A stretch of 64,000 nt of DNA from positions 1 through 64,000 of the forward strand of contig OZ237759.1 in assembly GCA_965178125.1 (NCBI GenBank), read 5' to 3'. Of this stretch, positions 1 to 34,402 are shown piece after piece. Every line of letters begins with the position of its first letter. Within the stretch, counting starts at the first letter, position 1. Source of the stretch: Bilabrum cf. latius. Taxonomy: Eukaryota. Both the position numbers and the translations under genes were made by a program. The notes under the pieces were generated by a model that was given only the letters and a program-made list of their open reading frames with translations, made no database searches and had not been told where the DNA came from.

Positions 1-53
1 AGTGAAGATGAAAATATTTTTCCCCGACCCTGTCCCTGACTTTATAATAGATA
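1..53 (+). repeat. Cap sequence, B-family variant (3' end of a further unit upstream of the window)
   Basis: Identical to 12721-12773 (AGTGAAGATG...TTTATAATAGATA), the terminus of the large element. Confidence 0.9.
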
Positions 54-236
54 CCCTAACCCTAACCCTAACCCTAACCCTAACCCTAACCCTAACCCTA
101 ACCCTAACCCTAACCCTAACCCTAACCCTAACCCTAACCCTAACCCTAACCCTAACCCTAACCCTAACCCTAACCCTAACCCTAACCCTAACCCTAACCC
201 TAACCCTAACCCTAACCCTAACCCTACCCTACCCTA

Positions 237-3200
237 CATTTGCCCCATGATATGGCCCTAGGCCGTCCCAAAACAGTTTGAATCATCTTCATACCTATTC
301 TAGTTGCTGAGATCGCAGAGGGCACATTTTCGGCATGTAAATCTTCATCAGCCAGTATCGTCGCCGCGCGGTCAAAACGGAACCTGGGGAACATTTGCCC
401 CATGATATGGCCCTAGGCCGTCCCAAAACAGTTTGAATCATCTTCATACCTATTCTAGTTGCTGAGATCGCAGAGGGCACATTTTCGGCATGTAAATCTT
501 CATCAGCCAGTATCGTCGCCGCACGGTCAAAACGGAACCTGGGGAACATTTGCCCCATGATATGGCCCTAGGCCATCCCAAAACAGTTTGAATCATCTTC
601 ATACCTATTCTAGTTGCTGAGATCGCAGAGGGCACATTTTCGGCATGTAAATCTTCATCAGCCAGTATCGTCGCCGCGCGGTCAAAACGGAACCTGGGGA
701 ACATTTGCCCCATGATATGGCCCTAGGCCATCCCAAAACAGTTTGAATCATCTTCATACCTATTCTAGTTGCTGAGATCGCAGAGGGCACATTTTCGACA
801 AAAAAATGAAGATGAAAATATTTTTTCCCCGACCCTGTCCCTGACTTTATATTAGATACCCTAACCCTAACCCTAACCCTAACCCTAACCCTAACCCTAA
901 CCCTAACCCTAACCCTAACCCTAACCCTAACCCTAACCCTAACCCTAACCCTAACCCTAACCCTAACCCTAACCCTAACCCTAACCCTAACCCTAACCCT
1001 AACCCTAACCCTAACCCTAACCCTAACCCTAACCCTAACCCTAACCCTAACCCTAACCCTAACCCTAACCCTAACCCTACCCTACCCTACATTTGCCCCA
1101 TGATATGGCCCTAGGCCGTCCCAAAACAGTTTGAATCATCTTCATACCTATTCTAGTTGCTGAGATCGCAGAGGGCACATTTTCGGCATGTAAATCTTCA
1201 TCAGCCAGTATCGTCGCCGCGCGGTCAAAACGGAACCTGGGGAACATTTGCCCCATGATATGGCCCTAGGCCGTCCCAAAACAGTTTGAATCATCTTCAT
1301 ACCTATTCTAGTTGCTGAGATCGCAGAGGGCACATTTTCGGCATGTAAATCTTCATCAGCCAGTATCGTCGCCGCACGGTCAAAACGGAACCTGGGGAAC
1401 ATTTGCCCCATGATATGGCCCTAGGCCATCCCAAAACAGTTTGAATCATCTTCATACCTATTCTAGTTGCTGAGATCGCAGAGGGCACATTTTCGGCATG
1501 TAAATCTTCATCAGCCAGTATCGTCGCCGCGCGGTCAAAACGGAACCTGGGGAACATTTGCCCCATGATATGGCCCTAGGCCATCCCAAAACAGTTTGAA
1601 TCATCTTCATACCTATTCTAGTTGCTGAGATCGCAGAGGGCACATTTTCGACAAAAAAATGAAGATGAAAATATTTTTTCCCCGACCCTGTCCCTGACTT
1701 TATATTAGATACCCTAACCCTAACCCTAACCCTAACCCTAACCCTAACCCTAACCCTAACCCTAACCCTAACCCTAACCCTAACCCTAACCCTAACCCTA
1801 ACCCTAACCCTAACCCTAACCCTAACCCTAACCCTAACCCTAACCCTAACCCTAACCCTAACCCTAACCCTAACCCTAACCCTAACCCTAACCCTAACCC
1901 TAACCCTAACCCTAACCCTAACCCTACCCTACCCTACATTTGCCCCATGATATGGCCCTAGGCCGTCCCAAAACAGTTTGAATCATCTTCATACCTATTC
2001 TAGTTGCTGAGATCGCAGAGGGCACATTTTCGGCATGTAAATCTTCATCAGCCAGTATCGTCGCCGCGCGGTCAAAACGGAACCTGGGGAACATTTGCCC
2101 CATGATATGGCCCTAGGCCGTCCCAAAACAGTTTGAATCATCTTCATACCTATTCTAGTTGCTGAGATCGCAGAGGGCACATTTTCGGCATGTAAATCTT
2201 CATCAGCCAGTATCGTCGCCGCACGGTCAAAACGGAACCTGGGGAACATTTGCCCCATGATATGGCCCTAGGCCATCCCAAAACAGTTTGAATCATCTTC
2301 ATACCTATTCTAGTTGCTGAGATCGCAGAGGGCACATTTTCGGCATGTAAATCTTCATCAGCCAGTATCGTCGCCGCGCGGTCAAAACGGAACCTGGGGA
2401 ACATTTGCCCCATGATATGGCCCTAGGCCATCCCAAAACAGTTTGAATCATCTTCATACCTATTCTAGTTGCTGAGATCGCAGAGGGCACATTTTCGACA
2501 AAAAAATGAAGATGAAAATATTTTTTCCCCGACCCTGTCCCTGACTTTATATTAGATACCCTAACCCTAACCCTAACCCTAACCCTAACCCTAACCCTAA
2601 CCCTAACCCTAACCCTAACCCTAACCCTAACCCTAACCCTAACCCTAACCCTAACCCTAACCCTAACCCTAACCCTAACCCTAACCCTAACCCTAACCCT
2701 AACCCTAACCCTAACCCTAACCCTAACCCTAACCCTAACCCTAACCCTAACCCTAACCCTAACCCTAACCCTAACCCTAACCCTACCCTACCCTACATTT
2801 GCCCCATGATATGGCCCTAGGCCGTCCCAAAACAGTTTGAATCATCTTCATACCTATTCTAGTTGCTGAGATCGCAGAGGGCACATTTTCGGCATGTAAA
2901 TCTTCATCAGCCAGTATCGTCGCCGCGCGGTCAAAACGGAACCTGGGGAACATTTGCCCCATGATATGGCCCTAGGCCGTCCCAAAACAGTTTGAATCAT
3001 CTTCATACCTATTCTAGTTGCTGAGATCGCAGAGGGCACATTTTCGGCATGTAAATCTTCATCAGCCAGTATCGTCGCCGCACGGTCAAAACGGAACCTG
3101 GGGAACATTTGCCCCATGATATGGCCCTAGGCCATCCCAAAACAGTTTGAATCATCTTCATACCTATTCTAGTTGCTGAGATCGCAGAGGGCACATTTTC

Positions 3201-4270
3201 GGCATGTAAATCTTCATCAGCCAGTATCGTCGCCGCGCGGTCAAAACGGAACCTGGGGAACATTTGCCCCATGATATGGCCCTAGGCCATCCCAAAACAG
3301 TTTGAATCATCTTCATACCTATTCTAGTTGCTGAGATCGCAGAGGGCACATTTTCGACAAAAAAATGAAGATGAAAATATTTTTTCCCCGACCCTGTCCC
3401 TGACTTTATATTAGATACCCTAACCCTAACCCTAACCCTAACCCTAACCCTAACCCTAACCCTAACCCTAACCCTAACCCTAACCCTAACCCTAACCCTA
3501 ACCCTAACCCTAACCCTAACCCTAACCCTAACCCTAACCCTAACCCTAACCCTAACCCTAACCCTAACCCTAACCCTAACCCTAACCCTAACCCTAACCC
3601 TAACCCTAACCCTAACCCTAACCCTAACCCTAACCCTACCCTACCCTACATTTGCCCCATGATATGGCCCTAGGCCGTCCCAAAACAGTTTGAATCATCT
3701 TCATACCTATTCTAGTTGCTGAGATCGCAGAGGGCACATTTTCGGCATGTAAATCTTCATCAGCCAGTATCGTCGCCGCGCGGTCAAAACGGAACCTGGG
3801 GAACATTTGCCCCATGATATGGCCCTAGGCCGTCCCAAAACAGTTTGAATCATCTTCATACCTATTCTAGTTGCTGAGATCGCAGAGGGCACATTTTCGG
3901 CATGTAAATCTTCATCAGCCAGTATCGTCGCCGCACGGTCAAAACGGAACCTGGGGAACATTTGCCCCATGATATGGCCCTAGGCCATCCCAAAACAGTT
4001 TGAATCATCTTCATACCTATTCTAGTTGCTGAGATCGCAGAGGGCACATTTTCGGCATGTAAATCTTCATCAGCCAGTATCGTCGCCGCGCGGTCAAAAC
4101 GGAACCTGGGGAACATTTGCCCCATGATATGGCCCTAGGCCATCCCAAAACAGTTTGAATCATCTTCATACCTATTCTAGTTGCTGAGATCGCAGAGGGC
4201 ACATTTTCGACAAAAAAATGAAGATGAAAATATTTTTTCCCCGACCCTGTCCCTGACTTTATATTAGATA
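237..4270 (+). repeat. Five tandem A-family units (about 3.6 x 155-bp satellite plus cap, 622 bp) separated by telomere tracts
   Basis: Units at 237-858, 1090-1711, 1937-2558, 2796-3417 and 3649-4270. They share the internal SNP pattern (GCGCGG/GCACGG, GGCCGT/GGCCAT) and the distal junction CCCTACCCTACCCTACATTTG. Confidence 0.97.
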
Positions 4271-4515
4271 CCCTAACCCTAACCCTAACCCTAACCCTAA
4301 CCCTAACCCTAACCCTAACCCTAACCCTAACCCTAACCCTAACCCTAACCCTAACCCTAACCCTAACCCTAACCCTAACCCTAACCCTAACCCTAACCCT
4401 AACCCTAACCCTAACCCTAACCCTAACCCTAACCCTAACCCTAACCCTAACCCTAACCCTAACCCTAACCCTAACCCTAACCCTAACCCTAACCCTAACC
4501 CTAACCCTAACCCTA

Positions 4516-6761
4516 CCGTGAGTCCTCGGCGTGCCGGGATTGTCCCGCTCCTACGTGGGGATGTGCCGGTTGAAGACGATGCTGTAGCCGAGCCGGGGCC
4601 TGGATGAGCCGCTCGTCTCCACCTCGGTGCGCTGGTGCTGCTGCGTGGCCGACTGCACCCTGATCTGCCCCCCGTCCCTCTGCAGACCCCTGCGCCCGCA
4701 GAGGACCCCATCCTGCGTCGCCGAGTCGGCTCCAATCAGCACGTCGATGAGGCCGTAGGCTTGGTCCAGCGGCTCGTCCAGCAGGAGCCGTGACACCGGC
4801 CCCCCAAGCACCAGCATGAACGGGCTGGTCTGCACCTCCTGGGAGGCTCCGGCGCCGGCTAGGATCCCGACCACCTCCATGGCGTCGACATCGGAGAGCT
4901 CAGAGCGGACCGCCACGGGGGCCGCCATGCCGTCTGGTGGGTTCCGCAGCACATCCGGGGCGGCCTCCTGCTCCTCTTCAGGCTCGCCTTCCAGCTCGGC
5001 ATCCGCAGCTCCGAAAGCCCCCGCGGCAGGATCTCCACCATCCGCTTCCTCGTCGCCGCCTTGGTCTCCGTCCGAGTCCCACTGGCCTTCCCCACCCCAC
5101 TCGCCTTCTCCAGCCTCATACCCGGCATCTTCGTCGCCCTCTGCATGCTCCTCCGCCCCAGCCGGCTGCGCCGCCGGCCCCTCCTCCATCTCGTCCTCGT
5201 CCTCGTCCTCGTACACGAACGCTGGAGGCTGCTCGGAGAGCCCGACCGCGTCAAAGACCGTCTCGTCCACGCGGTTGTACTCGATGTAGTGATCCCACTC
5301 CGTGCGGAGCGGAGAGAGCTTGTGGCTGTGCAGCCCGGGCTCCGCCAGCATCGGAGACGGCCAGAAGCTGACCGCCACCGAAGCCAGCTTGCTCCGAATG
5401 AAGGCAGCCCCTTCCTCGTTCAGGTCTTCGCTCTCCAGCATCTTGGTGATGTCAGTCCAGCCAACGAGCTGCACGAGAAAGCGGCCGCGCCTCTGCGCGC
5501 GCTGCTCCACGCCGGCAGCATCAGTCTCGGCATGCAGGAGGCTGTCCACGACGACAACGGCGCGCCTCTGGTACGCCCACCAGCGCCGCATGCCTTGCAT
5601 GGTCACCGTCTCCATCACTGGAGGTGCGAGCGCCCTCCACACCTCGGGAGGCAGCTCCTGCCTGCCAACGCAGGTCAGCAGGCCCTGCAGGGCCTGCACC
5701 GCCTCGTCGTCCACCTCCCATATGTGGTAGGCCAGCATGGGGTGCTGCGCGAGGTCGTCCGTCGCCTCGTGCATGCCGAACCGGTACTCGGGCGGGAGGT
5801 TGACGGCCAGGGCCTCCTCTCCCTGCGCTCCCCCCGGGTCGCCGACGACCAGGTTCCACGCCTGCACGGGTGGCGCACCGACCTCCCCTCCGGCGTCTGG
5901 GCCTGCGCCACCGCCTTGGGCGCCGGCTGCCTCTGCACCGGCAGCGAACACGACTCCGGGGATGGGCAGCTCGGGCGCTCCTCCCTCTGCCCCGAAGAGC
6001 GGCTGCTGGCCCTGAGCATCCCAGACCATGGCCTGCCGAGCTGCCTGGGTGGCCGCGTGGGCGGCTTGGCGCCCGAGGAAGATGGCCTGGACCGCTTCTG
6101 GGGGCTCGTCGTCCTCCATCGCGTCCTCCCCTGCGCCGACCCCGGCCAGGACGGGCACCTCGGCGAGAGGCACGGGCCCAGGGACGAGTTGGTGCTGGGC
6201 AGCCTGGGCAGCTGGCTGCTGCTCGGCTGCTGGAGGGGCCGGACCGACGCCGGCTGGCCCACCTGCAGGCTCCTGCTGGGGCTCCGGGATCGGGAGGAAG
6301 GCGTCGGCATCGCCAGCTGGCGGCTCGGGCTGCAAGCCTCCTGGGACCGGCAGGTTGGCACCCGGACCAGCGGGGTGCTGGGGCGGGGCGGCGGCCATCG
6401 CCTGCTGGCCAGCAGCAAGAGCTGCACCAGGTGGTGGTTGGTGGGCGCCCTCTTGCTGCTGGTGCTGGGGCTCCGGAGCATGCTCGCCGATGGCTGGGGC
6501 GGGGGCCGGCAGGCCTGCCGCATCGCCCCCCCCGGCGGCATGGCCGCCTGGCGCTGGCCCCACCTGGGCCGGGATCTGGGCCTGCGCCTCGCCGGCCGGC
6601 GGGCCAGGCAGGGCGGCACCTCCTGGTTGAAGTGGCCCTGGGACTCCGATGCGCACGCGATGCGGGTTCTGAGCGTAGCCCTTCGCGCGGCGGTCCAGGA
6701 AGGCCCGAAGGTAGTCGAGAGCCTTCACATGCTTGGTGGCGTCGTACGTGGACTGCGCCAT
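4516..6761 (-). pseudogene. 3'-truncated ORF-A (first ~748 codons), fused in frame to telomeric repeats
   Basis: Identical to the 5' part of ORF-A at 20116-22361. With TAG=Gln the frame continues through (AGG GTT)n to a TGA at 4011-4013. Confidence 0.8.
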
Positions 6762-7335
6762 GACCAGACTGCGGACAGAGATGCCACAAGGATATATAAT
6801 ATACTTGGGATGTGATTAGTATGATGGTACGATGCGTTGTTCCCTGGTGGCGCACTCGTCACGGCGGTGCCGCGCATCAGGTTCCGCAACCTGATCCGGG
6901 CCACCACAAATGTTGTCGCAGCACACCTGCCGCAAGCAAAGTGAGCATTGGGCGCGCAGCCTATATATCGCCGCGCAATTGTTTGCAGTATGTTATATTA
7001 TTTGATAATATGCGCGAGATTAGTTCCAACGAGTGCTTGCCGTCGCGCAATTGAGCCAAACGTCTGAACCACGTTGCAGCAAGCGCATTGCGCAAGGCAA
7101 TCCCCACGCATACCCCATCGATTTGACTCACGTTTGCTTTAGGGTTGTATGCACAATATGCTATAGTAGCTATATGCCAAGTATGCGCCTCTGCAATTGA
7201 ATACAAGGAGCGCAATATGAGTGTTTCTGATTTCGCGCTGCTCGTTGGGTGAACGGGTAGGTTTCGGCGTGACAAGTGCAAGTTGCGTGCACTTTTGATG
7301 CGAATCTGTATTTTTTTTTCGGTTTCGCGTGGGTT

Positions 7336-7424
7336 GCTGTGGTGGTGTAGTGGTATTGCGTACGGTTGGTAATCGCACCCAGGCCTACCCCCGAGGTTCG
7401 ATTCCCGTTGGGGCGATCTTTTTT
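7336..7424 (+). ncRNA. tRNA-derived Pol III-type unit (A box, B box, oligo-T), not a canonical tRNA
   Basis: A box TGGTGTAGTGG at 7343-7353, B box GGTTCGATTCC at 7395-7405, T-run at 7419-7424. The acceptor and T stems do not pair canonically. Confidence 0.6.
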
Positions 7425-7642
7425 AATTTTTTTCTGGGCTGGGGTCCGCCCCCCCACGACTGGGGGATCGACCTAACATCATGGGTCCCGGGTCTGAGAC
7501 CGAGTGCGCGGGGTCGTGGCCTTCTTTTTCTTTGCCCTCGAGCTTGCCCTGGAGACTCCCTGGGTCTCATGTCCGTGTTCGCTGCCGCATCCAAGCGCCT
7601 GTTCGTGGCCTTACCCGTGTTCCCCCAGCACCGCAGAGTACT

Positions 7643-9178
7643 ATGGCCGCCGCAAAGAGCTACAGCGTCAAGCACACCAAGGCCTCCCGCCCCGTCGTGG
7701 CTGCCCTGGCTTCAGGCGTCAGCACGTCTGCTGCCAAGCAAGTCCTGCTGATCTCCCTCGTGGGCCTCCACCAAGATTGCGGGTTACTCTGCGGGTCTAC
7801 CGAGCACTACTAGGGGACCAAGAAAGAGGGCATCAAAGCCTGCGTGGATGCCATGCTGGACCTGAATGAGTCCGATCTGCCGCCTGACATGCTGAAGGTG
7901 CTGAGTCACCGCCTATATCCGGCTGCATCAACTAGCGGCACCAGCTCGCCAGGCTACCGCAAGATGAATTAGATGCTCATGGGCCTGCGCGACAGCGGCT
8001 ACTCTACCAGCCACAATCCTTGGTTCAAGGCAGGCATGGATGGCTTGCGGAGGAACTACAAGACCGCGATCAAGTTCGTCTGCGACTACGGAGCTGGGAA
8101 AGCCTCTGTGCGTGCGCGTGGAGGCATGCAGGCTGTGTTCCAAGACGTGTTTGACATGGCAGTCAAGGACTCTGCCGCGGCAGCCGCAGGGGACCAAGAT
8201 GCTTCTGCGGGAGCCGCTGCTGCTTCGCCGAGTGGAGCACCCCGTGCTGGCAAGGACAAACGGAGTGCCATGGTCGACGACGACGAGGACGACCCCGACG
8301 ACGGTGTCGCGGACCACAGTGCCTACAAGGCCCAGAGGAAACGAGGCGAGCAAGATTCAGACGGCTCAGAGTCCAGCGACTCATAGACCGAGCGACTGAA
8401 CAACGACCTACTCGGCCCCAAGCGGAGAGCGGAGGCCAAGGCCAGGGAAAAGGCAAAGGCCAAATTGAAGGCCAGGACCAAGGCCGCGGGCAAGTCAAAG
8501 GGAAAGTCAAAGGGAAAGCCGAGGGATGAAGGTGCGCAACCGGCAGAACCGGAGCGCAGGAAGGCGACTGAAGCGGCACCTCGGGCTAAGATACAGCACA
8601 AGCGATCGCCCATTCTCCAACCGGGCTATGGCGGAGGAGCTCGCCACGCCGTTGGCCAGGACAAGAGGGGAGCAAGAGGCGCAAGGAGTGGAGCAGCAGC
8701 ATCACTGCCTCGACAGGACTCTGAGGAGGATGAAGAGGAGATCGGTGATCGATACCACGCAGACGCAGCCGATGAAGAGGACGAGGATGAGGCTCCGATA
8801 GAACTCGTGCAGCAGGACGAGGAGGATCAGGACGAGCTGGATGAGGAAGAAGAGAACGAGGCCCAGAACCAGCAAGACGACTCTGAGAACGACGGTGGAG
8901 TGGATGACAACGGCTTCACCGACTAGCAGCGGCACCTGGTGGACCGCATCCTCGCTGCCTGCGATGACATAGCGCTGGGCGTCAGCCGAACTCTCGACGA
9001 CATGCTCGAGGACGTGCAGGAAACAATTCAAGAGAGGGACGACGGGTTGGGCACGCTCGTAGGCCTGATGACGGCCCTCGAGAAGACGGCGGAAGGAGAT
9101 CTCAATGCAGCAGACGTGGACGCTGTTGAGGCGCTCCTGGCAGCTGTCGATGCGGAACCCTCCTCCGATAACGAGTGA
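7643..9178 (+). CDS. Element ORF-B, 511 aa, unknown function (Lys-rich basic segment, Asp/Glu-rich C-terminal region)
   Basis: Four same-frame ORF-track fragments are joined across TAGs at 7811, 7970, 8384 and 8924. It starts at ATG 7643 and ends in TGA. Confidence 0.8.
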
Positions 9179-9444
9179 AAAGCAGCCAGGCGGATACCAA
9201 TTGAGGTCAGTGGCAGCTGGGCCAGCTTGTGAGAGGAGCTTGCCAGAGTGCCAGCCAGTGACCCGTTAGGACGGGATAGTAGGAGCCAGGACGCAATCTA
9301 TTTAGTCTTGACTATAAGCCAACGAATACCTGATGTCAAAGCGATGTATCGACCAAGGAGGTTAACGCATACATATGGCTACGTAGAACGAGCCACAACA
9401 TTGAATATCGGTCAATAACCACTGGATTCCCAAACCCACACCTA

Positions 9445-11018
9445 GGGTAGGTTTCAAACCTCCCTGGGTAGGTTTTGAAACCTCCCTGGGTAGGTTTTGA
9501 AACCTCCCTGGGTAGGTTTTGAAACCTCCCTGGGTAGGTTTTGAAACCTCCCTGGGTAGGTTTTGAAACCTCCCTGGGTAGGTTTTGAAACCTCCCTGGG
9601 TAGGTTTTGAAACCGCCCTGGGTAGGTTTTGAAACCTCCCTGGGTAGGTTTTGAAACCGCCCTGGGTAGGTTTTGAAACCGCCCTGGGTAGGTTTTGAAA
9701 CCGCCCTGGGTAGGTTTTGAAACCGCCCTGGGTAGGTTTTGAAACCGCCCTGGGTAGGTTTTGAAACCGCCCTGGGTAGGTTTTGAAACCGCCCTGGGTA
9801 GGTTTTGAAACCGCCCTGGGTAGGTTTTGAAACCGCCCTGGGTAGGTTTTGAAACCGCCCTGGGTAGGTTTTGAAACCGCCCTGGGTAGGTTTTGAAACC
9901 GCCCTGGGTAGGTTTTGAAACCGCCCTGGGTAGGTTTTGAAACCGCCCTGGGTAGGTTTTGAAACCGCCCTGGGTAGGTTTTGAAACCGCCCTGGGTAGG
10001 TTTTGAAACCGCCCTGGGTAGGTTTTGAAACCGCCCTGGGTAGGTTTTGAAACCGCCCTGGGTAGGTTTTGAAACCGCCCTGGGTAGGTTTTGAAACCGC
10101 CCTGGGTAGGTTTTGAAACCGCCCTGGGTAGGTTTTGAAACCGCCCTGGGTAGGTTTTGAAACCGCCCTGGGTAGGTTTCGAAACCGCCCTGGGTAGGTT
10201 TTGAAACCGCCCTGGGTAGGTTTTGAAACCGCCCTGGGTAGGTTTTGAAACCGCCCTGGGTAGGTTTTGAAACCGCCCTGGGTAGGTTTTGAAACCGCCC
10301 TGGGTAGGTTTTGAAACCGCCCTGGGTAGGTTTTGAAACCGCCCTGGGTAGGTTTTGAAACCGCCCTGGGTAGGTTTTGAAACCGCCCTGGGTAGGTTTT
10401 GAAACCGCCCTGGGTAGGTTTTGAAACCGCCCTGGGTAGGTTTTGAAACCGCCCTGGGTAGGTTTTGAAACCGCCCTGGGTAGGTTTTGAAACCGCCCTG
10501 GGTAGGTTTTGAAACCGCCCTGGGTAGGTTTTGAAACCGCCCTGGGTAGGTTTTGAAACCGCCCTGGGTAGGTTTTGAAACCGCCCTGGGTAGGTTTTGA
10601 AACCGCCCTGGGTAGGTTTTGAAACCGCCCTGGGTAGGTTTTGAAACCGCCCTGGGTAGGTTTTGAAACCGCCCTGGGTAGGTTTTGAAACCGCCCTGGG
10701 TAGGTTTTGAAACCGCCCTGGGTAGGTTTTGAAACCGCCCTGGGTAGGTTTTGAAACCGCCCTGGGTAGGTTTTGAAACCGCCCTGGGTAGGTTTTGAAA
10801 CCGCCCTGGGTAGGTTTTGAAACCGCCCTGGGTAGGTTTTGAAACCGCCCTGGGTAGGTTTTGAAACCGCCCTGGGTAGGTTTTGAAACCGCCCTGGGTA
10901 GGTTTTGAAACCGCCCTGGGTAGGTTTTGAAACCGCCCTGGGTAGGTTTTGAAACCGCCCTGGGTAGGTTTTGAAACCGCCCTGGGTAGGTTTTGAAACC
11001 TCCCCCGAGTAGGTTTCA
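9445..11018. repeat. 22-bp tandem array (GAAACCGCCCTGGGTAGGTTTT)n, about 71 copies, right arm of element
   Basis: Read directly. The first units carry the CCTCCC variant, and the array ends with the inverted motif TTGAAACCT...AGGTTTCAA. Confidence 0.98.
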
Positions 11019-11054
11019 ATACGCCATACTTGCACTGAATGAAGTACAATGAAT

Positions 11055-12773
11055 CTGAGGAACATTTGGCCAATGTTGTGGCCCTAGGCCGTCCCAACGC
11101 AATTTGAACGGTCTTCATATCTCCTGTGGTTGCCGAGATCGTATCCCGCAGGATTTCAGCATGAAAATCTTCAAGGCCCAATATTGGCGCCGCGCGTCAA
11201 AAGCGGAACCTGAGGAACATTTGGCCAATGATGTGGCCCTAGGCCGTCCCAACGCAATTTGAACGGTCTTCATATCTCCTGTGGTTGCCGAGATCGTATC
11301 CCGCAGGATTTCAGCATGAAAATCTTCAAGGCCCAATATTGGCGCTGCGCGTCAAAAGCGGAACCTGAGGAACATTTGGCCAATGTTGTGGCCCTAGGCC
11401 GTCCCAACGCAATTTGAACGGTCTTCATATCTCCTGTGGTTGCCGAGATCGTATCCCGCAGGATTTCAGCATGAAAATCTTCAAGGCCCAATATTGGCGC
11501 CGCGCGTCAAAAGCGGAACCTGAGGAACATTTGGCCAATGATGTGGCTCTAGGCCGTCCCAACGCAATTTGAACGGTCTTCATATCTCCTGTGGTTGCCG
11601 AGATCGTATCCCGCAGGATTTCAGCATGAAAATCTTCAAGGCCCAATATTGGCGCCGCGCGTCAAAAGCGGAACCTGAGGAACATTTGGCCAATGATGTG
11701 GCCCTAGGCCGTCCCAACGCAATTTGAACGGTCTTCATATCTCCTGTGGTTGCCGAGATCGTATCCCGCAGGATTTCAGCATGAAAATCTTCAAGGCCCA
11801 ATATTGGCGCCGCGCGTCAAAAGCAAAAGCGGAACCTGAGGAACATTTGGCCAATGATGTGGCTCTAGGCCGTCCCAACGCAATTTGAACGGTCTTCATA
11901 TCTCCTGTGGTTGCCGAGATCGTATCCCGCAGGATTTCAGCATGAAAATCTTCAAGGCCCAATATTGGCGCCGCGCGTCAAAAGCGGAACCTGAGGAACA
12001 TTTGGCCAATGATGTGGCCCTAGGCCGTCCCAACGCAATTTGAACGGTCTTCATATCTCCTGTGGTTGCCGAGATCGTATCCCGCAGGATTTCAGCATGA
12101 AAATCTTCAAGGCCCAATATTGGCGCCGCGCGTCAAAAGCGGAACCTGAGGAACATTTGGCCAATGATGTGGCTCTAGGCCGTCCCAATGCAATTTTAAC
12201 GGTCTTCATATCTCCTGTGGTTGCCGAGATCGTATCCCGCAGGATTTCAGCATGAAAATCTTCAAGGCCCAATATTGGCGCCGCGCGTCAAAAGCGGAAC
12301 CTGAGGAACATTTGGCCAATGTTGTGGCCCTAGGCCGTCCCAACGCAATTTGAACGGTCTTCATATCTCCTGTGGTTGCCGAGATCGTATCCCGCAGGAT
12401 TTCAGCATGAAAATCTTCAAGGCCCAATATTGGCGCCGCGCGTCAAAAGCGGAACCTGAGGAACATTTGGCCAATGTTGTGGCCCTAGGCCGTCCCAACG
12501 CAATTTGAACGGTCTTCATATCTCCTGTGGTTGCCGAGATCGTATCCCGCAGGATTTCAGCATGAAAATCTTCAAGGCCCAATATTGGCGCCGCGCGTCA
12601 AAAGCGGAACCTGAGGAACATTTGGCCAATGATGTGGCCCTAGGCCGTCCCAACGCAATTTGAACGGTCTTCATATCTCCTGTGGTTGCCGAGATCGTAT
12701 CCCGCAGGATTTTGTCAAAAAGTGAAGATGAAAATATTTTTCCCCGACCCTGTCCCTGACTTTATAATAGATA
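11055..12773 (+). repeat. B-family 155-bp satellite (about 10.7 copies) plus cap
   Basis: 155-bp period (CTGAGGAACATTTGGCCAATG...AAAAGCGGAAC), clearly homologous to the A and C families, ending in the cap ...ATAATAGATA|CCCTAA. Confidence 0.97.
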
Positions 12774-22935: not shown

Positions 22936-23024
22936 GCTGTGGTGGTGTAGTGGTATTGCGTACGGTTGGTAATCGCACCCAGGCCTACCCCCGAGGTTCG
23001 ATTCCCGTTGGGGCGATCTTTTTT
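22936..23024 (+). ncRNA. tRNA-derived Pol III-type unit, second copy
   Basis: Identical to 7336-7424. Confidence 0.6.
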
Positions 23025-23242
23025 AATTTTTTTCTGGGCTGGGGTCCGCCCCCCCACGACTGGGGGATCGACCTAACATCATGGGTCCCGGGTCTGAGAC
23101 CGAGTGCGCGGGGTCGTGGCCTTCTTTTTCTTTGCCCTCGAGCTTGCCCTGGAGACTCCCTGGGTCTCATGTCCGTGTTCGCTGCCGCATCCAAGCGCCT
23201 GTTCGTGGCCTTACCCGTGTTCCCCCAGCACCGCAGAGTACT

Positions 23243-24778
23243 ATGGCCGCCGCAAAGAGCTACAGCGTCAAGCACACCAAGGCCTCCCGCCCCGTCGTGG
23301 CTGCCCTGGCTTCAGGCGTCAGCACGTCTGCTGCCAAGCAAGTCCTGCTGATCTCCCTCGTGGGCCTCCACCAAGATTGCGGGTTACTCTGCGGGTCTAC
23401 CGAGCACTACTAGGGGACCAAGAAAGAGGGCATCAAAGCCTGCGTGGATGCCATGCTGGACCTGAATGAGTCCGATCTGCCGCCTGACATGCTGAAGGTG
23501 CTGAGTCACCGCCTATATCCGGCTGCATCAACTAGCGGCACCAGCTCGCCAGGCTACCGCAAGATGAATTAGATGCTCATGGGCCTGCGCGACAGCGGCT
23601 ACTCTACCAGCCACAATCCTTGGTTCAAGGCAGGCATGGATGGCTTGCGGAGGAACTACAAGACCGCGATCAAGTTCGTCTGCGACTACGGAGCTGGGAA
23701 AGCCTCTGTGCGTGCGCGTGGAGGCATGCAGGCTGTGTTCCAAGACGTGTTTGACATGGCAGTCAAGGACTCTGCCGCGGCAGCCGCAGGGGACCAAGAT
23801 GCTTCTGCGGGAGCCGCTGCTGCTTCGCCGAGTGGAGCACCCCGTGCTGGCAAGGACAAACGGAGTGCCATGGTCGACGACGACGAGGACGACCCCGACG
23901 ACGGTGTCGCGGACCACAGTGCCTACAAGGCCCAGAGGAAACGAGGCGAGCAAGATTCAGACGGCTCAGAGTCCAGCGACTCATAGACCGAGCGACTGAA
24001 CAACGACCTACTCGGCCCCAAGCGGAGAGCGGAGGCCAAGGCCAGGGAAAAGGCAAAGGCCAAATTGAAGGCCAGGACCAAGGCCGCGGGCAAGTCAAAG
24101 GGAAAGTCAAAGGGAAAGCCGAGGGATGAAGGTGCGCAACCGGCAGAACCGGAGCGCAGGAAGGCGACTGAAGCGGCACCTCGGGCTAAGATACAGCACA
24201 AGCGATCGCCCATTCTCCAACCGGGCTATGGCGGAGGAGCTCGCCACGCCGTTGGCCAGGACAAGAGGGGAGCAAGAGGCGCAAGGAGTGGAGCAGCAGC
24301 ATCACTGCCTCGACAGGACTCTGAGGAGGATGAAGAGGAGATCGGTGATCGATACCACGCAGACGCAGCCGATGAAGAGGACGAGGATGAGGCTCCGATA
24401 GAACTCGTGCAGCAGGACGAGGAGGATCAGGACGAGCTGGATGAGGAAGAAGAGAACGAGGCCCAGAACCAGCAAGACGACTCTGAGAACGACGGTGGAG
24501 TGGATGACAACGGCTTCACCGACTAGCAGCGGCACCTGGTGGACCGCATCCTCGCTGCCTGCGATGACATAGCGCTGGGCGTCAGCCGAACTCTCGACGA
24601 CATGCTCGAGGACGTGCAGGAAACAATTCAAGAGAGGGACGACGGGTTGGGCACGCTCGTAGGCCTGATGACGGCCCTCGAGAAGACGGCGGAAGGAGAT
24701 CTCAATGCAGCAGACGTGGACGCTGTTGAGGCGCTCCTGGCAGCTGTCGATGCGGAACCCTCCTCCGATAACGAGTGA
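23243..24778 (+). CDS. Element ORF-B, second copy, 511 aa
   Basis: Identical to 7643-9178 (offset 15600). Confidence 0.8.
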
Positions 24779-25044
24779 AAAGCAGCCAGGCGGATACCAA
24801 TTGAGGTCAGTGGCAGCTGGGCCAGCTTGTGAGAGGAGCTTGCCAGAGTGCCAGCCAGTGACCCGTTAGGACGGGATAGTAGGAGCCAGGACGCAATCTA
24901 TTTAGTCTTGACTATAAGCCAACGAATACCTGATGTCAAAGCGATGTATCGACCAAGGAGGTTAACGCATACATATGGCTACGTAGAACGAGCCACAACA
25001 TTGAATATCGGTCAATAACCACTGGATTCCCAAACCCACACCTA

Positions 25045-26574
25045 GGGTAGGTTTCAAACCTCCCTGGGTAGGTTTTGAAACCTCCCTGGGTAGGTTTTGA
25101 AACCTCCCTGGGTAGGTTTTGAAACCTCCCTGGGTAGGTTTTGAAACCTCCCTGGGTAGGTTTTGAAACCTCCCTGGGTAGGTTTTGAAACCTCCCTGGG
25201 TAGGTTTTGAAACCGCCCTGGGTAGGTTTTGAAACCTCCCTGGGTAGGTTTTGAAACCGCCCTGGGTAGGTTTTGAAACCGCCCTGGGTAGGTTTTGAAA
25301 CCGCCCTGGGTAGGTTTTGAAACCGCCCTGGGTAGGTTTTGAAACCGCCCTGGGTAGGTTTTGAAACCGCCCTGGGTAGGTTTTGAAACCGCCCTGGGTA
25401 GGTTTTGAAACCGCCCTGGGTAGGTTTTGAAACCGCCCTGGGTAGGTTTTGAAACCGCCCTGGGTAGGTTTTGAAACCGCCCTGGGTAGGTTTTGAAACC
25501 GCCCTGGGTAGGTTTTGAAACCGCCCTGGGTAGGTTTTGAAACCGCCCTGGGTAGGTTTTGAAACCGCCCTGGGTAGGTTTTGAAACCGCCCTGGGTAGG
25601 TTTTGAAACCGCCCTGGGTAGGTTTTGAAACCGCCCTGGGTAGGTTTTGAAACCGCCCTGGGTAGGTTTTGAAACCGCCCTGGGTAGGTTTTGAAACCGC
25701 CCTGGGTAGGTTTTGAAACCGCCCTGGGTAGGTTTTGAAACCGCCCTGGGTAGGTTTTGAAACCGCCCTGGGTAGGTTTTGAAACCGCCCTGGGTAGGTT
25801 TCGAAACCGCCCTGGGTAGGTTTTGAAACCGCCCTGGGTAGGTTTTGAAACCGCCCTGGGTAGGTTTTGAAACCGCCCTGGGTAGGTTTTGAAACCGCCC
25901 TGGGTAGGTTTTGAAACCGCCCTGGGTAGGTTTTGAAACCGCCCTGGGTAGGTTTTGAAACCGCCCTGGGTAGGTTTTGAAACCGCCCTGGGTAGGTTTT
26001 GAAACCGCCCTGGGTAGGTTTTGAAACCGCCCTGGGTAGGTTTTGAAACCGCCCTGGGTAGGTTTTGAAACCGCCCTGGGTAGGTTTTGAAACCGCCCTG
26101 GGTAGGTTTTGAAACCGCCCTGGGTAGGTTTTGAAACCGCCCTGGGTAGGTTTTGAAACCGCCCTGGGTAGGTTTTGAAACCGCCCTGGGTAGGTTTTGA
26201 AACCGCCCTGGGTAGGTTTTGAAACCGCCCTGGGTAGGTTTTGAAACCGCCCTGGGTAGGTTTTGAAACCGCCCTGGGTAGGTTTTGAAACCGCCCTGGG
26301 TAGGTTTTGAAACCGCCCTGGGTAGGTTTTGAAACCGCCCTGGGTAGGTTTTGAAACCGCCCTGGGTAGGTTTTGAAACCGCCCTGGGTAGGTTTTGAAA
26401 CCGCCCTGGGTAGGTTTTGAAACCGCCCTGGGTAGGTTTTGAAACCGCCCTGGGTAGGTTTTGAAACCGCCCTGGGTAGGTTTTGAAACCGCCCTGGGTA
26501 GGTTTTGAAACCGCCCTGGGTAGGTTTTGAAACCGCCCTGGGTAGGTTTTGAAACCTCCCCCGAGTAGGTTTCA
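25045..26574. repeat. 22-bp tandem array, right arm, second copy (2 units shorter)
   Basis: Same unit. The offset to copy 1 changes from 15600 to 15556 across the array. Confidence 0.97.
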
Positions 26575-26610
26575 ATACGCCATACTTGCACTGAATGAAG
26601 TACAATGAAT

Positions 26611-28337
26611 CTGAGGAACATTTGGCCAATGTTGTGGCCCTAGGCCGTCCCAACGCAATTTGAACGGTCTTCATATCTCCTGTGGTTGCCGAGATCGTAT
26701 CCCGCAGGATTTCAGCATGAAAATCTTCAAGGCCCAATATTGGCGCCGCGCGTCAAAAGCGGAACCTGAGGAACATTTGGCCAATGATGTGGCCCTAGGC
26801 CGTCCCAACGCAATTTGAACGGTCTTCATATCTCCTGTGGTTGCCGAGATCGTATCCCGCAGGATTTCAGCATGAAAATCTTCAAGGCCCAATATTGGCG
26901 CTGCGCGTCAAAAGCGGAACCTGAGGAACATTTGGCCAATGTTGTGGCCCTAGGCCGTCCCAACGCAATTTGAACGGTCTTCATATCTCCTGTGGTTGCC
27001 GAGATCGTATCCCGCAGGATTTCAGCATGAAAATCTTCAAGGCCCAATATTGGCGCCGCGCGTCAAAAGCGGAACCTGAGGAACATTTGGCCAATGATGT
27101 GGCTCTAGGCCGTCCCAACGCAATTTGAACGGTCTTCATATCTCCTGTGGTTGATATCTCCTGTGGTTGCCGAGATCGTATCCCGCAGGATTTCAGCATG
27201 AAAATCTTCAAGGCCCAATATTGGCGCCGCGCGTCAAAAGCGGAACCTGAGGAACATTTGGCCAATGATGTGGCCCTAGGCCGTCCCAACGCAATTTGAA
27301 CGGTCTTCATATCTCCTGTGGTTGCCGAGATCGTATCCCGCAGGATTTCAGCATGAAAATCTTCAAGGCCCAATATTGGCGCCGCGCGTCAAAAGCGGAA
27401 CCTGAGGAACATTTGGCCAATGATGTGGCTCTAGGCCGTCCCAACGCAATTTGAACGGTCTTCATATCTCCTGTGGTTGCCGAGATCGTATCCCGCAGGA
27501 TTTCAGCATGAAAATCTTCAAGGCCCAATATTGGCGCCGCGCGTCAAAAGCGGAACCTGAGGAACATTTGGCCAATGATGTGGCCCTAGGCCGTCCCAAC
27601 GCAATTTGAACGGTCTTCATATCTCCTGTGGTTGCCGAGATCGTATCCCGCAGGATTTCAGCATGAAAATCTTCAAGGCCCAATATTGGCGCCGCGCGTC
27701 AAAAGCGGAACCTGAGGAACATTTGGCCAATGATGTGGCTCTAGGCCGTCCAACGCAATTTTAACGGTCTTCATATCTCCTGTGGTTGCCGAGATCGTAT
27801 CCCGCAGGATTTCAGCATGAAAATCTTCAAGGCCCAATATTGGCGCCGCGCGTCAAAAGCGGAACCTGAGGAACATTTGGCCAATGTTGTGGCCCTAGGC
27901 CGTCCAACGCAATTTGAACGGTCTTCATATCTCCTGTGGTTGCCGAGATCGTATCCCGCAGGATTTCAGCATGAAAATCTTCAAGGCCCAATATTGGCGC
28001 CGCGCGTCAAAAGCGGAACCTGAGGAACATTTGGCCAATGTTGTGGCCCTAGGCCGTCCCAACGCAATTTGAACGGTCTTCATATCTCCTGTGGTTGCCG
28101 AGATCGTATCCCGCAGGATTTCAGCATGAAAATCTTCAAGGCCCAATATTGGCGCCGCGCGTCAAAAGCGGAACCTGAGGAACATTTGGCCAATGATGTG
28201 GCCCTAGGCCGTCCCAACGCAATTTGAACGGTCTTCATATCTCCTGTGGTTGCCGAGATCGTATCCCGCAGGATTTTGTCAAAAAGTGAAGATGAAAATA
28301 TTTTTCCCCGACCCTGTCCCTGACTTTATAATAGATA
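26611..28337 (+). repeat. B-family 155-bp satellite plus cap, second copy
   Basis: Same unit and variant order as 11055-12773, with small indels (e.g. a 16-bp duplication near 27153). Confidence 0.97.
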
Positions 28338-29023
28338 CCCTAACCCTAACCCTAACCCTAACCCTAACCCTAACCCTAACCCTAACCCTAACCCTAACCC
28401 TAACCCTAACCCTAACCCTAACCCTAACCCTAACCCTAACCCTAACCCTAACCCTAACCCTAACCCTAACCCTAACCCTAACCCTAACCCTAACCCTAAC
28501 CCTAACCCTAACCCTAACCCTAACCCTAACCCTAACCCTAACCCTAACCCTAACCCTAACCCTAACCCTAACCCTAACCCTAACCCTAACCCTAACCCTA
28601 ACCCTAACCCTAACCCTAACCCTAACCCTAACCCTAACCCTAACCCTAACCCTAACCCTAACCCTAACCCTAACCCTAACCCTAACCCTAACCCTAACCC
28701 TAACCCTAACCCTAACCCTAACCCTAACCCTAACCCTAACCCTAACCCTAACCCTAACCCTAACCCTAACCCTAACCCTAACCCTAACCCTAACCCTAAC
28801 CCTAACCCTAACCCTAACCCTAACCCTAACCCTAACCCTAACCCTAACCCTAACCCTAACCCTAACCCTAACCCTAACCCTAACCCTAACCCTAACCCTA
28901 ACCCTAACCCTAACCCTAACCCTAACCCTAACCCTAACCCTAACCCTAACCCTAACCCTAACCCTAACCCTAACCCTAACCCTAACCCTAACCCTAACCC
29001 TAACCCTAACCCCCCCCCCTAAA

Positions 29024-32815: not shown

Positions 32816-33456
32816 CCCTAACCCTAACCCTAACCCTAACCCTAACCCTAACCCTAACCCTAACCCTAACCCTAACCCTAACCCTAACCCTAACCCTAAC
32901 CCTAACCCTAACCCTAACCCTAACCCTAACCCTAACCCTAACCCTAACCCTAACCCTAACCCTAACCCTAACCCTAACCCTAACCCTAACCCTAACCCTA
33001 ACCCTAACCCTAACCCTAACCCTAACCCTAACCCTAACCCTAACCCTAACCCTAACCCTAACCCTAACCCTAACCCTAACCCTAACCCTAACCCTAACCC
33101 TAACCCTAACCCTAACCCTAACCCTAACCCTAACCCTAACCCTAACCCTAACCCTAACCCTAACCCTAACCCTAACCCTAACCCTAACCCTAACCCTAAC
33201 CCTAACCCTAACCCTAACCCTAACCCTAACCCTAACCCTAACCCTAACCCTAACCCTAACCCTAACCCTAACCCTAACCCTAACCCTAACCCTAACCCTA
33301 ACCCTAACCCTAACCCTAACCCTAACCCTAACCCTAACCCTAACCCTAACCCTAACCCTAACCCTAACCCTAACCCTAACCCTAACCCTAACCCTAACCC
33401 TAACCCTAACCCTAACCCTAACCCTAACCCTAACCCTAACCCTAACCCTAACCCTA

Positions 33457-34071
33457 CCCATGATATGGCCCTAGGCCGTCCCAAAACAGTTTGAATCATC
33501 TTCATACCTATTCTAGTTGCTGAGATCGCAGAGGGCACATTTTCGGCATGTAAATCTTCATCAGCCAGTATCGTCGCCGCGCGGTCAAAACGGAACCTGG
33601 GGAACACTTGCCCCATGATATGGCCCTAGGCCGTCCCAAAACAGTTTGAATCATCTTCATACCTATTCTAGTTGCTGAGATCGCAGAGGGCACATTTTCG
33701 GCATGTAAATCTTCATCAGCCAGTATCGTCGCCGCACGGTCAAAACGGAACCTGGGGAACATTTGCCCCATGATATGGCCCTAGGCCATCCCAAAACAGT
33801 TTGAATCATCTTCATACCTATTCTAGTTGCTGAGATCGCAGAGGGCACATTTTCGGCATGTAAATCTTCATCAGCCAGTATCGTCGCCGCGCGGTCAAAA
33901 CGGAACCTGGGGAACATTTGCCCCATGATATGGCCCTAGGCCATCCCAAAACAGTTTGAATCATCTTCATACCTATTCTAGTTGCTGAGATCGCAGAGGG
34001 CACATTTTCGACAAAAAAATGAAGATGAAAATATTTTTTCCCCGACCCTGTCCCTGACTTTATATTAGATA
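33457..34071 (+). repeat. Proximal A-family unit
   Basis: Same satellite and cap as 237-858, but with a different distal breakpoint (CCCTA|CCCATG) and an AACACTTG variant. Confidence 0.96.
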
Positions 34072-34276
34072 CCCTAACCCTAACCCTAACCCTAACCCTA
34101 ACCCTAACCCTAACCCTAACCCTAACCCTAACCCTAACCCTAACCCTAACCCTAACCCTAACCCTAACCCTAACCCTAACCCTAACCCTAACCCTAACCC
34201 TAACCCTAACCCTAACCCTAACCCTAACCCTAACCCTAACCCTAAACCTAACCCCTAACCCTTAACCTAACCTAAA

Positions 34277-34350
34277 TATATATAATGTGCGGCGGTTTAT
34301 TTTTTGGTCAAAAAAAGGGCGTGCCCCGATCCTAACATGACCCCCAGATA
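34277..34350 (+). repeat. Diverged cap-like segment
   Basis: GTCAAAAAAAG...CCCCGATCCTAACATGACCCCCAGATA|CCCTAA resembles the cap (GTCAAAAAG...CCCCGACCCTGTCCCTGAC...AGATA|CCCTAA). Confidence 0.55.
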
Positions 34351-34402
34351 CCCTAACCCTAACCCTAACCCTAACCCTAACCCTAACCCTAACCCTAACC
34401 TA

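What the first reader, a model, noticed from the sequence alone, without database searches (positions are those of the whole stretch)
1..34350. A shared ~60-bp cap fixes the proximal junction of every telomeric insert
Seen: the A, B and C satellite units, a solo cap (13519-13581) and a diverged cap (34277-34350) all point the same way. All end at ...AGATA|CCCTAA in the same telomere register, while distal ends vary. The cap is more conserved than the satellites it is attached to. Known: a fixed 3' end with variable 5' truncation and telomere capping is the signature of elements copied onto chromosome ends (Athena/Terminon, HeT-A/TART) or inserted site-specifically in telomere repeats (SART/TRAS, MoTeR). 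Inference: the cap plus a CCCUAA tail is the cis signal of a telomere-attachment system that mobilises non-coding and coding cargo with an enzyme supplied in trans.
Basis: partly seen in the sequence, partly recalled or inferred. Interest (0 to 1): 0.82.

Follow-up and report, generated by a model that had tools for sequence, protein, structure and literature searches.

The report
Conserved cap at telomere-satellite junctions
At one chromosome end, every buried stretch of telomere repeats is followed on its outer side by the same short, unusually well conserved sequence attached to satellite DNA; it is not yet clear whether this pattern is spread by DNA recombination or by copying from RNA.

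Summary
The window's first 34.4 kb is a chromosome-end array. All (CCCTAA)n tracts lie on the + strand. Each tract is preceded by the same module, ending ...AGATA|CCCTAA. That is 14 of 14 clear caps, all on the + strand and none elsewhere, plus one weak diverged copy.

The cap joins three satellite families at the same phase of the 155-bp unit. The families are 75-81% alike. Of the cap's 52 core columns, 50 are invariant, against 29-41 in any satellite window.

Distal ends differ: 8 junction types with irregular first repeats, as telomerase healing would give.

The RNA/reverse-transcriptase reading has no positive support. I found no RT or endonuclease in 30 ORFs, no hammerhead or other Rfam hit, no RNA structure or covariation, and no usable RNA run.

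DNA-level copying is visible. Five A units are 100% identical. Three C junction modules share a telomere variant. An 8.9-kb block is duplicated with 4,929 identical unique bases, and it carries an antisense ORF and inverted arrays.

Best reading (0.5): telomerase healing plus homology-driven copying from interstitial telomere tracts. RNA-templated attachment remains possible (about 0.27). No whole genome was available to decide.

The parts
1..53 (+). Cap, B-type, cut by the window edge
   Evidence: T5 run and ATAATAG as in the B caps; followed by CCCTAA at 54
54..236 (+). Interstitial telomere tract, 28 perfect CCCTAA then (CCCTA)3
222..4270 (+). Five A units, each (CCCTA)3 + 3.6 x 155-bp satellite A + cap. 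Caps at 798-858, 1651-1711, 2498-2558, 3357-3417 and 4210-4270. The intervening tracts have 36, 35, 37 and 36 repeats
   Evidence: the five 637-bp non-telomeric parts are 100% identical
4271..4515 (+). Telomere tract (40 repeats) capping the truncated long unit
4516..12773 (+). Truncated copy of the long B unit: orphan ORF region, 22-bp array 9445-11016, satellite B 11051-12712, cap 12717-12773
   Evidence: 4516-13448 = 20116-29012 at 99.2%; 4,929 unique bases identical
12774..13518 (+). Telomere tract (122 perfect repeats, then irregular CTAAACCCTAACCT)
13519..13581 (+). Solo cap with 2-3 satellite bases, telomere repeats on both sides
13582..13942 (+). Telomere tract (34 + 25 repeats around a CCCTCACC variant)
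13943..28337 (+). Long B unit, 14.4 kb: inverted 22-bp array 13945-15158, unique region with minus-strand frame 15702-22415, 22-bp array 25045-26572, satellite B 26607-28276, cap 28281-28337
28338..29023 (+). Telomere tract (112 repeats) ending in an irregular C10-TAAA
29024..32815 (+). Four C units. Caps at 29430-29481, 30570-30621, 31640-31691 and 32764-32815. Three intervening tracts (64, 57, 66 repeats) each carry CCTTAA as the fifth repeat and end at the same junction CCCTAA|GTCTTCATATC
32816..33456 (+). Telomere tract (106 repeats)
33457..34071 (+). Proximal A unit (3.6 satellite units + cap 34011-34071), with a different distal junction from the five distal A units
34072..34276 (+). Telomere tract, 29 perfect repeats then decayed repeats
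34277..34350 (+). Possible diverged (fossil) cap ending CAGATA|CCCTAA
   Evidence: weak: 20 of 2000 shuffles reach the score
34351..34402 (+). Innermost telomere tract (8 repeats), abutting the 55-bp minisatellite

Best explanation
The region is a young, fast-turning chromosome-end array made at the DNA level.

Proposed steps:
1. An end erodes or breaks inside a satellite or the long unit.
2. Telomerase heals it. This gives a variable distal junction that starts with irregular repeats.
3. That terminal tract later invades an interstitial telomere tract on a sister or on another end. It copies outward by break-induced replication, D-loop extension, unequal exchange or a rolling circle.
4. The first thing copied is always the cap, then its satellite.

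The cap|CCCTAA junction is therefore inherited from one ancestral junction, and its register is fixed by descent. The cap stays nearly uniform either because it is copied in every such event, or because it also has a function of its own at buried telomere tracts. Which of these holds is open.

Shown: the anatomy, the duplications and the cap's conservation. Inferred: healing, strand invasion, and the reason for the conservation.
For: 1. Exact DNA-level duplicates. Five A units are 100% identical over 637 bp, including the irregular (CCCTA)3, and differ only in tract length (36, 35, 37, 36, 40 repeats). Three cap-tract-satellite modules in the C block share the CCTTAA variant at repeat 5 and the same distal junction.
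2. An 8.9-kb block is repeated at 99.2%, with 4,929 unique bases identical. The outer copy is cut off at a point internal to the inner copy and capped by telomere repeats. So the pattern 'fixed proximal cap, truncated and capped distal end' also applies to a 14.4-kb unit. That unit holds an opposite-strand frame of 2,238 codons and inverted 22-bp arrays of 1.2-1.5 kb.
3. Distal junctions begin with irregular repeats next to G-rich satellite bases, as expected for de novo telomere addition.
4. No RT or endonuclease domain was found in 30 ORFs. There was no Rfam hit and no RNA structure.
5. In passages read from PMC7367193, MoTeR arrays were seen to change by interstitial-tract breaks and capping, BIR, D-loop or rolling-circle amplification, and terminal truncation with de novo telomere addition.
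Against: 1. Cap conservation is sharp-edged and far above the satellites: 50 of 52 columns against 29-41 in satellite windows, and A = C at 52/52 while their satellites are 117/155 alike. The 8-9 base linker just upstream differs between families. Neutral copying would more naturally give a gradient, so some selection on the cap is likely, and a mobility signal is one candidate.
2. Three old families (20-25% diverged) keep the same cap at the same satellite phase, like non-autonomous elements sharing a 3' module.
3. The origin of the first cap-beyond-telomere junction is not explained by recombination.
4. Satellite families alternate along the array (B, A, B, solo, B, C, A), which needs several donors.
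5. None of this was tested outside one window, because no genome was held.
Confidence: 0.5

Rival explanations
1. RNA-templated end attachment. A plus-strand transcript satellite-cap-(CCCUAA)n anneals by its tail to the G-rich 3' overhang. An RT supplied in trans (an endonuclease-deficient Penelope-like or non-LTR enzyme, or telomerase itself) copies it onto the end. Synthesis stops at variable points and telomerase recaps. The cap is the recognition module, so only copies with an intact cap spread.
For: The architecture matches:
- one orientation, with the 3' end inward;
- telomere-complementary repeats directly after the cap at 15 of 15 junctions;
- variable outer ends, including a 63-nt solo cap;
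- a cap far better conserved than its three satellite bodies, with a sharp boundary;
- an innermost, decayed cap-like copy, as for a dead element;
- a cap kept next to a differing satellite in a second coded organism (run X5, record 13; hand tally, 7 table rows not shown).
EN- PLEs are described as attaching to G-overhangs with reverse-complement telomeric repeats (PMC8557442, passages).
Against: - No RT or endonuclease in 30 ORFs of the window.
- No hammerhead motif or other Rfam family, although PMC8557442 describes HHR motifs adjacent to the telomeric stretch in EN- PLEs.
- The cap folds no better than shuffles (z from -0.74 to +0.64). Compensatory pairs number 0 of 33 on the + strand.
- All upstream contexts of the cap that were shown in run X1 are satellite at the same phase, with no coding element (table 7; 10 rows not shown).
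- The identical (CCCTA)3 junctions of five A units and the shared CCTTAA variant point to DNA copying, or would need transcripts that start inside the upstream tract.
- The 14.4-kb unit would have to pass through an RNA carrying long inverted arrays and an antisense frame.
- Telomere tracts are 28-122 repeats long, not the short stretches that the PMC8557442 figure legend describes for EN- PLEs.
Confidence: 0.27
2. Site-specific insertion into telomere repeats by an element-encoded endonuclease (SART/TRAS or MoTeR type). The enzyme cuts the repeat at one position and so fixes the register.
For: Fixed register at 15 of 15 junctions, and telomere repeats on both sides of every unit.
Against: No endonuclease or RT was found in the window. 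The outer flanks do not end at one phase and begin with different irregular repeats: (CCCTA)3, C10TAAA, CTAAACCCTAACCT, or none. This fits new synthesis on a free end, not a cut in a continuous tract. There is no poly(A) and no target duplication.
Confidence: 0.05
3. Long-range assembly artefact. The cap and satellites are real, but their order, copy number and the 15.6-kb duplication come from mis-joined long reads at a repetitive end.
For: Perfect identity of five units and of 4,929 bp is also what collapsed or duplicated assembly would give. The two B arrays differ by small indels and monomer order, as read errors could.
Against: Contigs of four runs from four coded organisms hold the satellite. 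Contigs of X1 and X5, and partly X7, hold the cap; an X5 contig joins satellite, cap and telomere repeats. The junction types are internally consistent. The best holder may be the source sample, so this is not independent proof of the long-range order.
Confidence: 0.03

Closest known systems
MoTeR1/MoTeR2 arrays in Magnaporthe oryzae telomeres (PMC7367193, passages read)
   Same: - Head-to-tail units in one orientation embedded in (CCCTAA)n.
- 3' border sequences shared between MoTeR1 and MoTeR2.
- 5'-truncated copies capped by telomere repeats, often at small seeds.
- Arrays that grow and shrink by interstitial-tract breaks, BIR, and D-loop or rolling-circle copying.
   Different: - Here no RT-bearing partner was seen.
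- The body is a 155-bp tandem satellite in three families.
- Interstitial tracts are much longer (28-122 repeats, against the paper's longest of 18).
- No constant variant-repeat 5' end was seen.
Endonuclease-deficient Penelope-like elements (Athena, Coprina, Terminons) (PMC8557442, passages read)
   Same: Attachment at chromosome ends, with reverse-complement telomeric repeats at the 3' end.
   Different: Those elements encode an RT and carry a hammerhead ribozyme motif next to a short telomeric stretch. Here there is no RT ORF, no hammerhead hit, and the tracts are long.
Subtelomeric Y' elements of Saccharomyces cerevisiae separated by internal telomere tracts (recalled; mentioned only in passing in PMC8287924)
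   Same: Same-orientation tandem units with telomere repeats between them. They are spread and homogenised by recombination, and the junction is constant by descent.
   Different: Y' is a 5-7 kb helicase-coding element (recalled). Here the units are short non-coding satellites with a discrete, hyper-conserved 52-nt junction module.
Sultan arrays of Chlamydomonas reinhardtii subtelomeres (PMC8287924, abstract and passages)
   Same: A species-specific tandem element next to the telomere, mostly duplicated within one subtelomere. Each unit has a telomere-like stretch proposed to seed healing after breaks.
   Different: From the one passage read, the Sultan unit carries a telomere seed sequence at its 5' end that runs in phase into the telomeric tract. 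Here full-length tracts lie between units and the conserved module is on the outer side of each tract. No sequence comparison with Sultan was made.
HeT-A/TART telomeric retrotransposons of Drosophila (recalled; PMC5537684 seen only as a search listing and abstract)
   Same: Head-to-tail arrays at ends, 3' end inward, variable 5' truncation.
   Different: Drosophila has no telomerase repeats between elements. Those elements are coding and poly(A)-tailed.

Membership tests
Endonuclease-deficient Penelope-like elements (Athena/Coprina/Terminon) | Element-encoded PLE reverse transcriptase | tested here: not met
   Pfam scan of 30 ORFs across the window found no RT. This covers the window only; the genome was not held.
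Endonuclease-deficient Penelope-like elements (Athena/Coprina/Terminon) | Hammerhead ribozyme motif near the 3' end | tested here: not met
   Rfam gave 0 matches at gathering score over 64 kb and 0 at E up to 1 over 26500-34500. A CUGAUGA...GAAA string on the minus strand of satellite A only (read by eye) is not kept in B or C.
Endonuclease-deficient Penelope-like elements (Athena/Coprina/Terminon) | Reverse-complement telomeric repeats at the 3' end, element 3' end facing inward | tested here: met
   CCCTAA follows the cap at 15 of 15 junctions, all on the + strand. The tracts are long (8-122 repeats), not short stretches.
Telomere-specific non-LTR retrotransposons (SART/TRAS, MoTeR, HeT-A/TART) | RT (and, for SART/TRAS/MoTeR, endonuclease) ORF in an autonomous member that shares the 3' end | tested here: not met
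   None in the window. The upstream contexts of the cap shown for run X1 are all satellite (table 7; 10 rows not shown). A genome-wide search was not possible.
Telomere-specific non-LTR retrotransposons (SART/TRAS, MoTeR, HeT-A/TART) | Fixed 3' junction in the telomere repeat with variable 5' truncation | tested here: met
   one proximal junction and 8 distal junction types. PMC7367193 shows that truncation can also arise by DNA degradation and healing.
Telomere-specific non-LTR retrotransposons (SART/TRAS, MoTeR, HeT-A/TART) | RNA intermediate (transcripts; poly(A) or other defined 3' end) | not testable with these tools
   There is no poly(A) at the cap end. All laid runs were contigs of unknown kind.
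Recombination-maintained subtelomeric repeats with internal telomere tracts (Y'-like, Sultan-like) | Same-orientation tandem units with near-identical neighbours and shared junction variants | tested here: met
   A x5 units are 100% identical. The C modules share CCTTAA and the distal junction. The 8.9-kb repeat is 99.2% identical, with 4,929 bp identical.
Recombination-maintained subtelomeric repeats with internal telomere tracts (Y'-like, Sultan-like) | Same blocks shared between chromosome ends; spread independent of any RT | not testable with these tools
   No genome was held. Contig depths are not copy numbers.

The most novel reading that the evidence does not exclude
The satellite-cap units are a non-coding, satellite-bodied telomere-attaching retroelement family. 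Transcripts ending in cap + (CCCUAA)n pair with the G-overhang and are copied onto chromosome ends by an RT acting in trans, possibly telomerase itself using the tail as a surrogate template. The 52-nt cap would be the shared recognition module of three old subfamilies. A further possibility is that its TATA-like end drives transcription of the next unit inward, as recalled for the HeT-A 3'-end promoter.
Probability: 0.25. Interest if true: 0.8.

Novelty: new variant of a known kind. Interest (0 to 1): 0.55.

Why it matters
Arrays that alternate full-length telomere tracts with other DNA show how chromosome ends are repaired and rebuilt. In this array a single 52-nt module marks every outer edge of a buried telomere tract and outlasts the satellites attached to it.

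If the module is a mobility signal, this would be a telomere-attaching element without a coding body, outside the few lineages where such systems are known. It would also be a possible link between satellite transcripts and RT-based end maintenance. If the module is a host element, it is a candidate protein-binding or boundary site for interstitial telomere tracts.

Either way, the array offers a compact system for telling recombination-based from RT-based end extension.

Tried and rejected
- Whole genome: none is held for this window, so no genome-wide cap census was possible.
- Rfam: nothing at gathering score in 64 kb and nothing at E up to 1 in 26500-34500.
- RNA folding of the cap with flanks, 9 stretches on either strand: z from -0.74 to +0.64.
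- RNAalifold on 5 rows (3 independent families): 0 of 33 compensatory pairs on the + strand and 2 of 36 on the - strand. Power is too low to mean anything.
- Metagenome scan with a 20-nt cap core: 1 locus, L001. It is a 1,258-bp contig without telomere repeats or satellite, so I took it as a chance match. The viral contig scan gave 0.
- Sequencing runs: the RNA rows held 0.05-0.09 of the words and come from animal-associated or wastewater metagenomes. These are probably telomere words only.
This is no evidence of absence.
- Cargo proteins:
  - P0001-P0003 and 7 more ORFs of the long unit have no Pfam family at E up to 0.01-0.1 beyond noise.
  - P0002 has no relative in the word-indexed search and no Atlas hit.
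  - phmmer of 1,013 residues (TAG read as Q) against 1.84 billion representatives found only 3 proteins that are 98-100% identical, all from one 12,766-bp contig.
- Organism: one Atlas row at 0.89 names Chlorophyta as commonest. This is a lead only.
- Literature: the search for '155-bp' + subtelomer + telomeric repeats + alga + tandem repeat gave 0 papers. Two broader searches listed nothing describing this arrangement in their titles or abstracts. I did not read those papers.
- Idea rejected: the cap as complement of telomerase RNA 5' of its template (template-boundary bypass). The satellites joined upstream at a fixed phase do not fit, and no telomerase RNA family matched.
- Supplements of the papers were not opened. 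Supplementary Table S4 and the supplementary figures of PMC7367193 may bear on the seed statistics I quote from the main text.

Full report
WHAT IS THERE

The first 34.4 kb of the window is a chromosome-end array, with the end lying to the left. (CCCTAA)2 occurs 813 times against 0.01 expected. There are 19 perfect runs of three or more repeats, all as CCCTAA on the + strand, and no TTAGGG run. Between the tracts lie three related 155-bp satellites (A, B, C), two copies of a long unit, and short junction modules.

Unique, gene-bearing sequence starts near 37.3 kb. It holds a dihydrolipoyl-dehydrogenase-type oxidoreductase, a GH79-like protein, a UFD1-like protein and others. It follows a 2.7-kb, 55-bp minisatellite. 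Composition is 60-65% G+C with long uninterrupted ORFs. One Atlas row (0.89) names Chlorophyta as the commonest phylum, which is a lead only.

THE CAP

A blastn-short search with the A cap finds 14 copies, all on the + strand, each ending ...AGATA directly before CCCTAA. The 25-nt core occurs 14 of 14 times without mismatch on the + strand. It occurs nowhere else in 64 kb with up to three mismatches, and shuffles gave 0. Every outer boundary of a telomere tract is a cap. A fifteenth, diverged copy at 34277-34350 shares collinear motifs and the CAGATA|CCCTAA end, but only weakly: 20 of 2000 shuffles reach the score against the A cap.

The cap joins A, B and C at the same phase of the 155-bp unit (...TTTTCG|ACAAA...). 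The solo cap (13519-13581) keeps just two or three satellite bases and has telomere repeats on both sides.

CONSERVATION

The satellites are alike at 117/155 (A-B), 117/155 (A-C) and 125/155 (B-C), and 105/155 columns are invariant. The 52-nt cap core is identical in A and C. It differs by one substitution and one T-run indel in B, and by three substitutions in the solo copy. No 52-nt window of the satellite has more than 41 invariant columns, while the cap has 50 (binomial P 5e-7). The 8-9 base linker just upstream differs between families, so the conserved block has a sharp edge.

I laid contigs of four runs from four coded organisms on 33760-34083 at 80% likeness.
- All four hold the satellite.
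- X1 and X5 hold the cap, and X7 holds part of it.
- One 539-nt X5 contig joins a differing satellite, the cap and the first telomere repeats. It has 32 differences over 199 bases. By my hand tally about 30 of them lie at or before 34019, that is in the satellite and linker. Seven table rows were not shown.
- In X1, five contigs that enter the cap from upstream run on into satellite variants at the same phase (table 7; ten rows not shown).

DISTAL ENDS

I count eight junction types among 15 units:
- (CCCTA)3|CATTTG, five times and identical;
- CCCTA|CCGTGAG, at the truncated long unit;
- an irregular CTAAACCCTAACC|TCGAC at the solo cap;
- CCCTAA|AAGGGGCGG at the long unit;
- C10TAAA|CCATG (C1);
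- CCCTAA|GTCTTC, three times and identical;
- CCCTA|CCCATG (proximal A);
- decayed repeats before the diverged cap.

The irregular first repeats, next to G-rich bases on the G strand, are what de novo telomere addition gives. PMC7367193 reports in-frame seeds at 17 of 23 truncated MoTeRs (passage). Three of four independent satellite starts fall within about ten bases of one another in the unit. This could reflect a favoured healing site or a transcription start, and the evidence for either is weak.

HOW MANY EVENTS

The five distal A units are 100% identical over 637 bp, including the irregular (CCCTA)3. They differ only in tract length (36, 35, 37, 36, 40 repeats). Three cap-tract-satellite modules in the C block share a CCTTAA at the fifth repeat and the same distal junction. 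These are DNA-level duplicates, or copies of a template that included the tract. The 15 caps therefore reduce to about eight or nine independent junctions (my count).

THE LONG UNIT

Positions 4516-13448 repeat 20116-29012 at 99.2%, and the 4,929 unique bases are identical. The outer copy starts at a point internal to the inner, 14.4-kb copy (13943-28337) and is capped there by telomere repeats. The fixed-cap, truncated-and-capped pattern therefore holds for this unit too.

The unit contains inverted 22-bp arrays of 1.2 and 1.5 kb. It also has a strongly three-periodic frame of 2,238 codons on the minus strand, that is antisense to the cap. The frame has no Pfam family. It has no relatives apart from three near-identical predicted proteins from one 12,766-bp contig. 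It is not an RT.

TESTS OF THE RNA/RT READING

- No RT or endonuclease domain in 30 ORFs across the window.
- No Rfam family, hammerheads and telomerase RNAs included.
- The cap with flanks folds no better than shuffles.
- No compensatory pairs on the + strand, with very low power.
- RNA runs held at most 0.09 of the sampled words, probably telomere words.
- The cap was not found in viral contigs. In metagenome contigs it was found only as one chance match.
The decisive census could therefore not be made.

READING

The anatomy fits repeated addition of cap-first DNA beyond a former terminal telomere, followed by recapping. The innermost parts are the most decayed.

Two mechanisms give this anatomy. 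The DNA route is telomerase healing plus copying started inside interstitial telomere tracts. It is directly supported by the exact duplicates and by the behaviour of the long unit. It is also documented for comparable arrays (PMC7367193). I take it as the best explanation (0.5).

Its weak point is the sharp, strong conservation of the cap across old satellite families, which suggests selection on the cap. That could be for a host role at buried telomere tracts, or for mobility.

The RNA-templated route (0.27) explains the cap's conservation well, but it has no positive evidence here. It also fails two features that PMC8557442 describes for EN- Penelope-like elements: an RT ORF and a hammerhead motif. 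Endonuclease-mediated insertion (0.05) fits the irregular outer flanks poorly. An assembly artefact in the long-range order (0.03) cannot be excluded, but contigs of other runs contain the parts.

COMPARISON AND NOVELTY

The array works most like MoTeR arrays, whose MoTeR1 and MoTeR2 share 3' border sequences. It is also like Y'-type or Sultan-type subtelomeric repeats. It cannot be filed as a member of any retroelement family, because no RT partner was found.

What is new is a non-coding, satellite-bodied unit with a discrete 52-nt module at every outer edge of long interstitial telomere tracts. My searches listed no description of such an arrangement. Only titles and abstracts were seen, and many journals are not in the library.

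Noticed in passing
window 15702-22415, minus strand (first part repeated at 4551-6815): One frame of 2,238 codons with strong three-base periodicity is interrupted by nine stops, all TAG. It has no TGA and no TAA; the other five frames carry 6-43 TGA. From codon accessibility, P(9 of 9 TAG) is about 0.014. This could be read-through or reassignment in this gene, or decay by C-to-T change at CAG. A second copy on a 12,766-bp public contig keeps the TAG after ...QVGS but has two substitutions and a frameshift.
   Followed up: partly
window 9445-11016 and 25045-26572 versus 13945-15158: Arrays of a 22-bp unit (GGGTAGGTTTTGAAACCGCCCT; 71.5, 69.5 and 54.9 copies) flank the unique part of the long unit in inverted orientation. 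The arms are about 88% alike. The outer array abuts telomere repeats directly.
   Followed up: no
window 34403-37145: A 55-bp G-rich minisatellite (49.9 copies, 97% matches) lies between the innermost telomere tract and the first gene. It is open in three minus-strand frames, probably by composition alone.
   Followed up: no
window 46538-47797, minus strand: An ORF with a helicase C-terminal domain and a weak RecQ zinc-binding match lies about 12 kb inside the array. This recalls the telomere-linked RecQ helicases of fungi (recalled). It may be part of an ordinary RecQ gene.
   Followed up: no
window 725-870 and the matching B and C stretches: The invariant satellite box TCTTCAT and the invariant start of the cap, TGAAGA, are complementary. 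They form the one helix (7-8 pairs) kept in all three families in the consensus fold. There is no compensatory change, so it may be chance.
   Followed up: partly
window 11051-12712 versus 26607-28276: The two B satellite arrays differ in monomer order and by small indels (a 16-bp duplication, a 6-bp insertion and 1-bp deletions), although the adjoining 4,929 unique bases are identical. Either the arrays change fast or there are read or assembly errors.
   Followed up: no
cap core, e.g. window 827-858: The cap contains three telomere-like hexamers (CCCCGA CCCTGT CCCTGA), out of register with the tract. They are followed by an AT-rich TTTATATTAGATA that looks like a TATA box about 10 bases before the first CCCTAA. 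The function was not tested.
   Followed up: no
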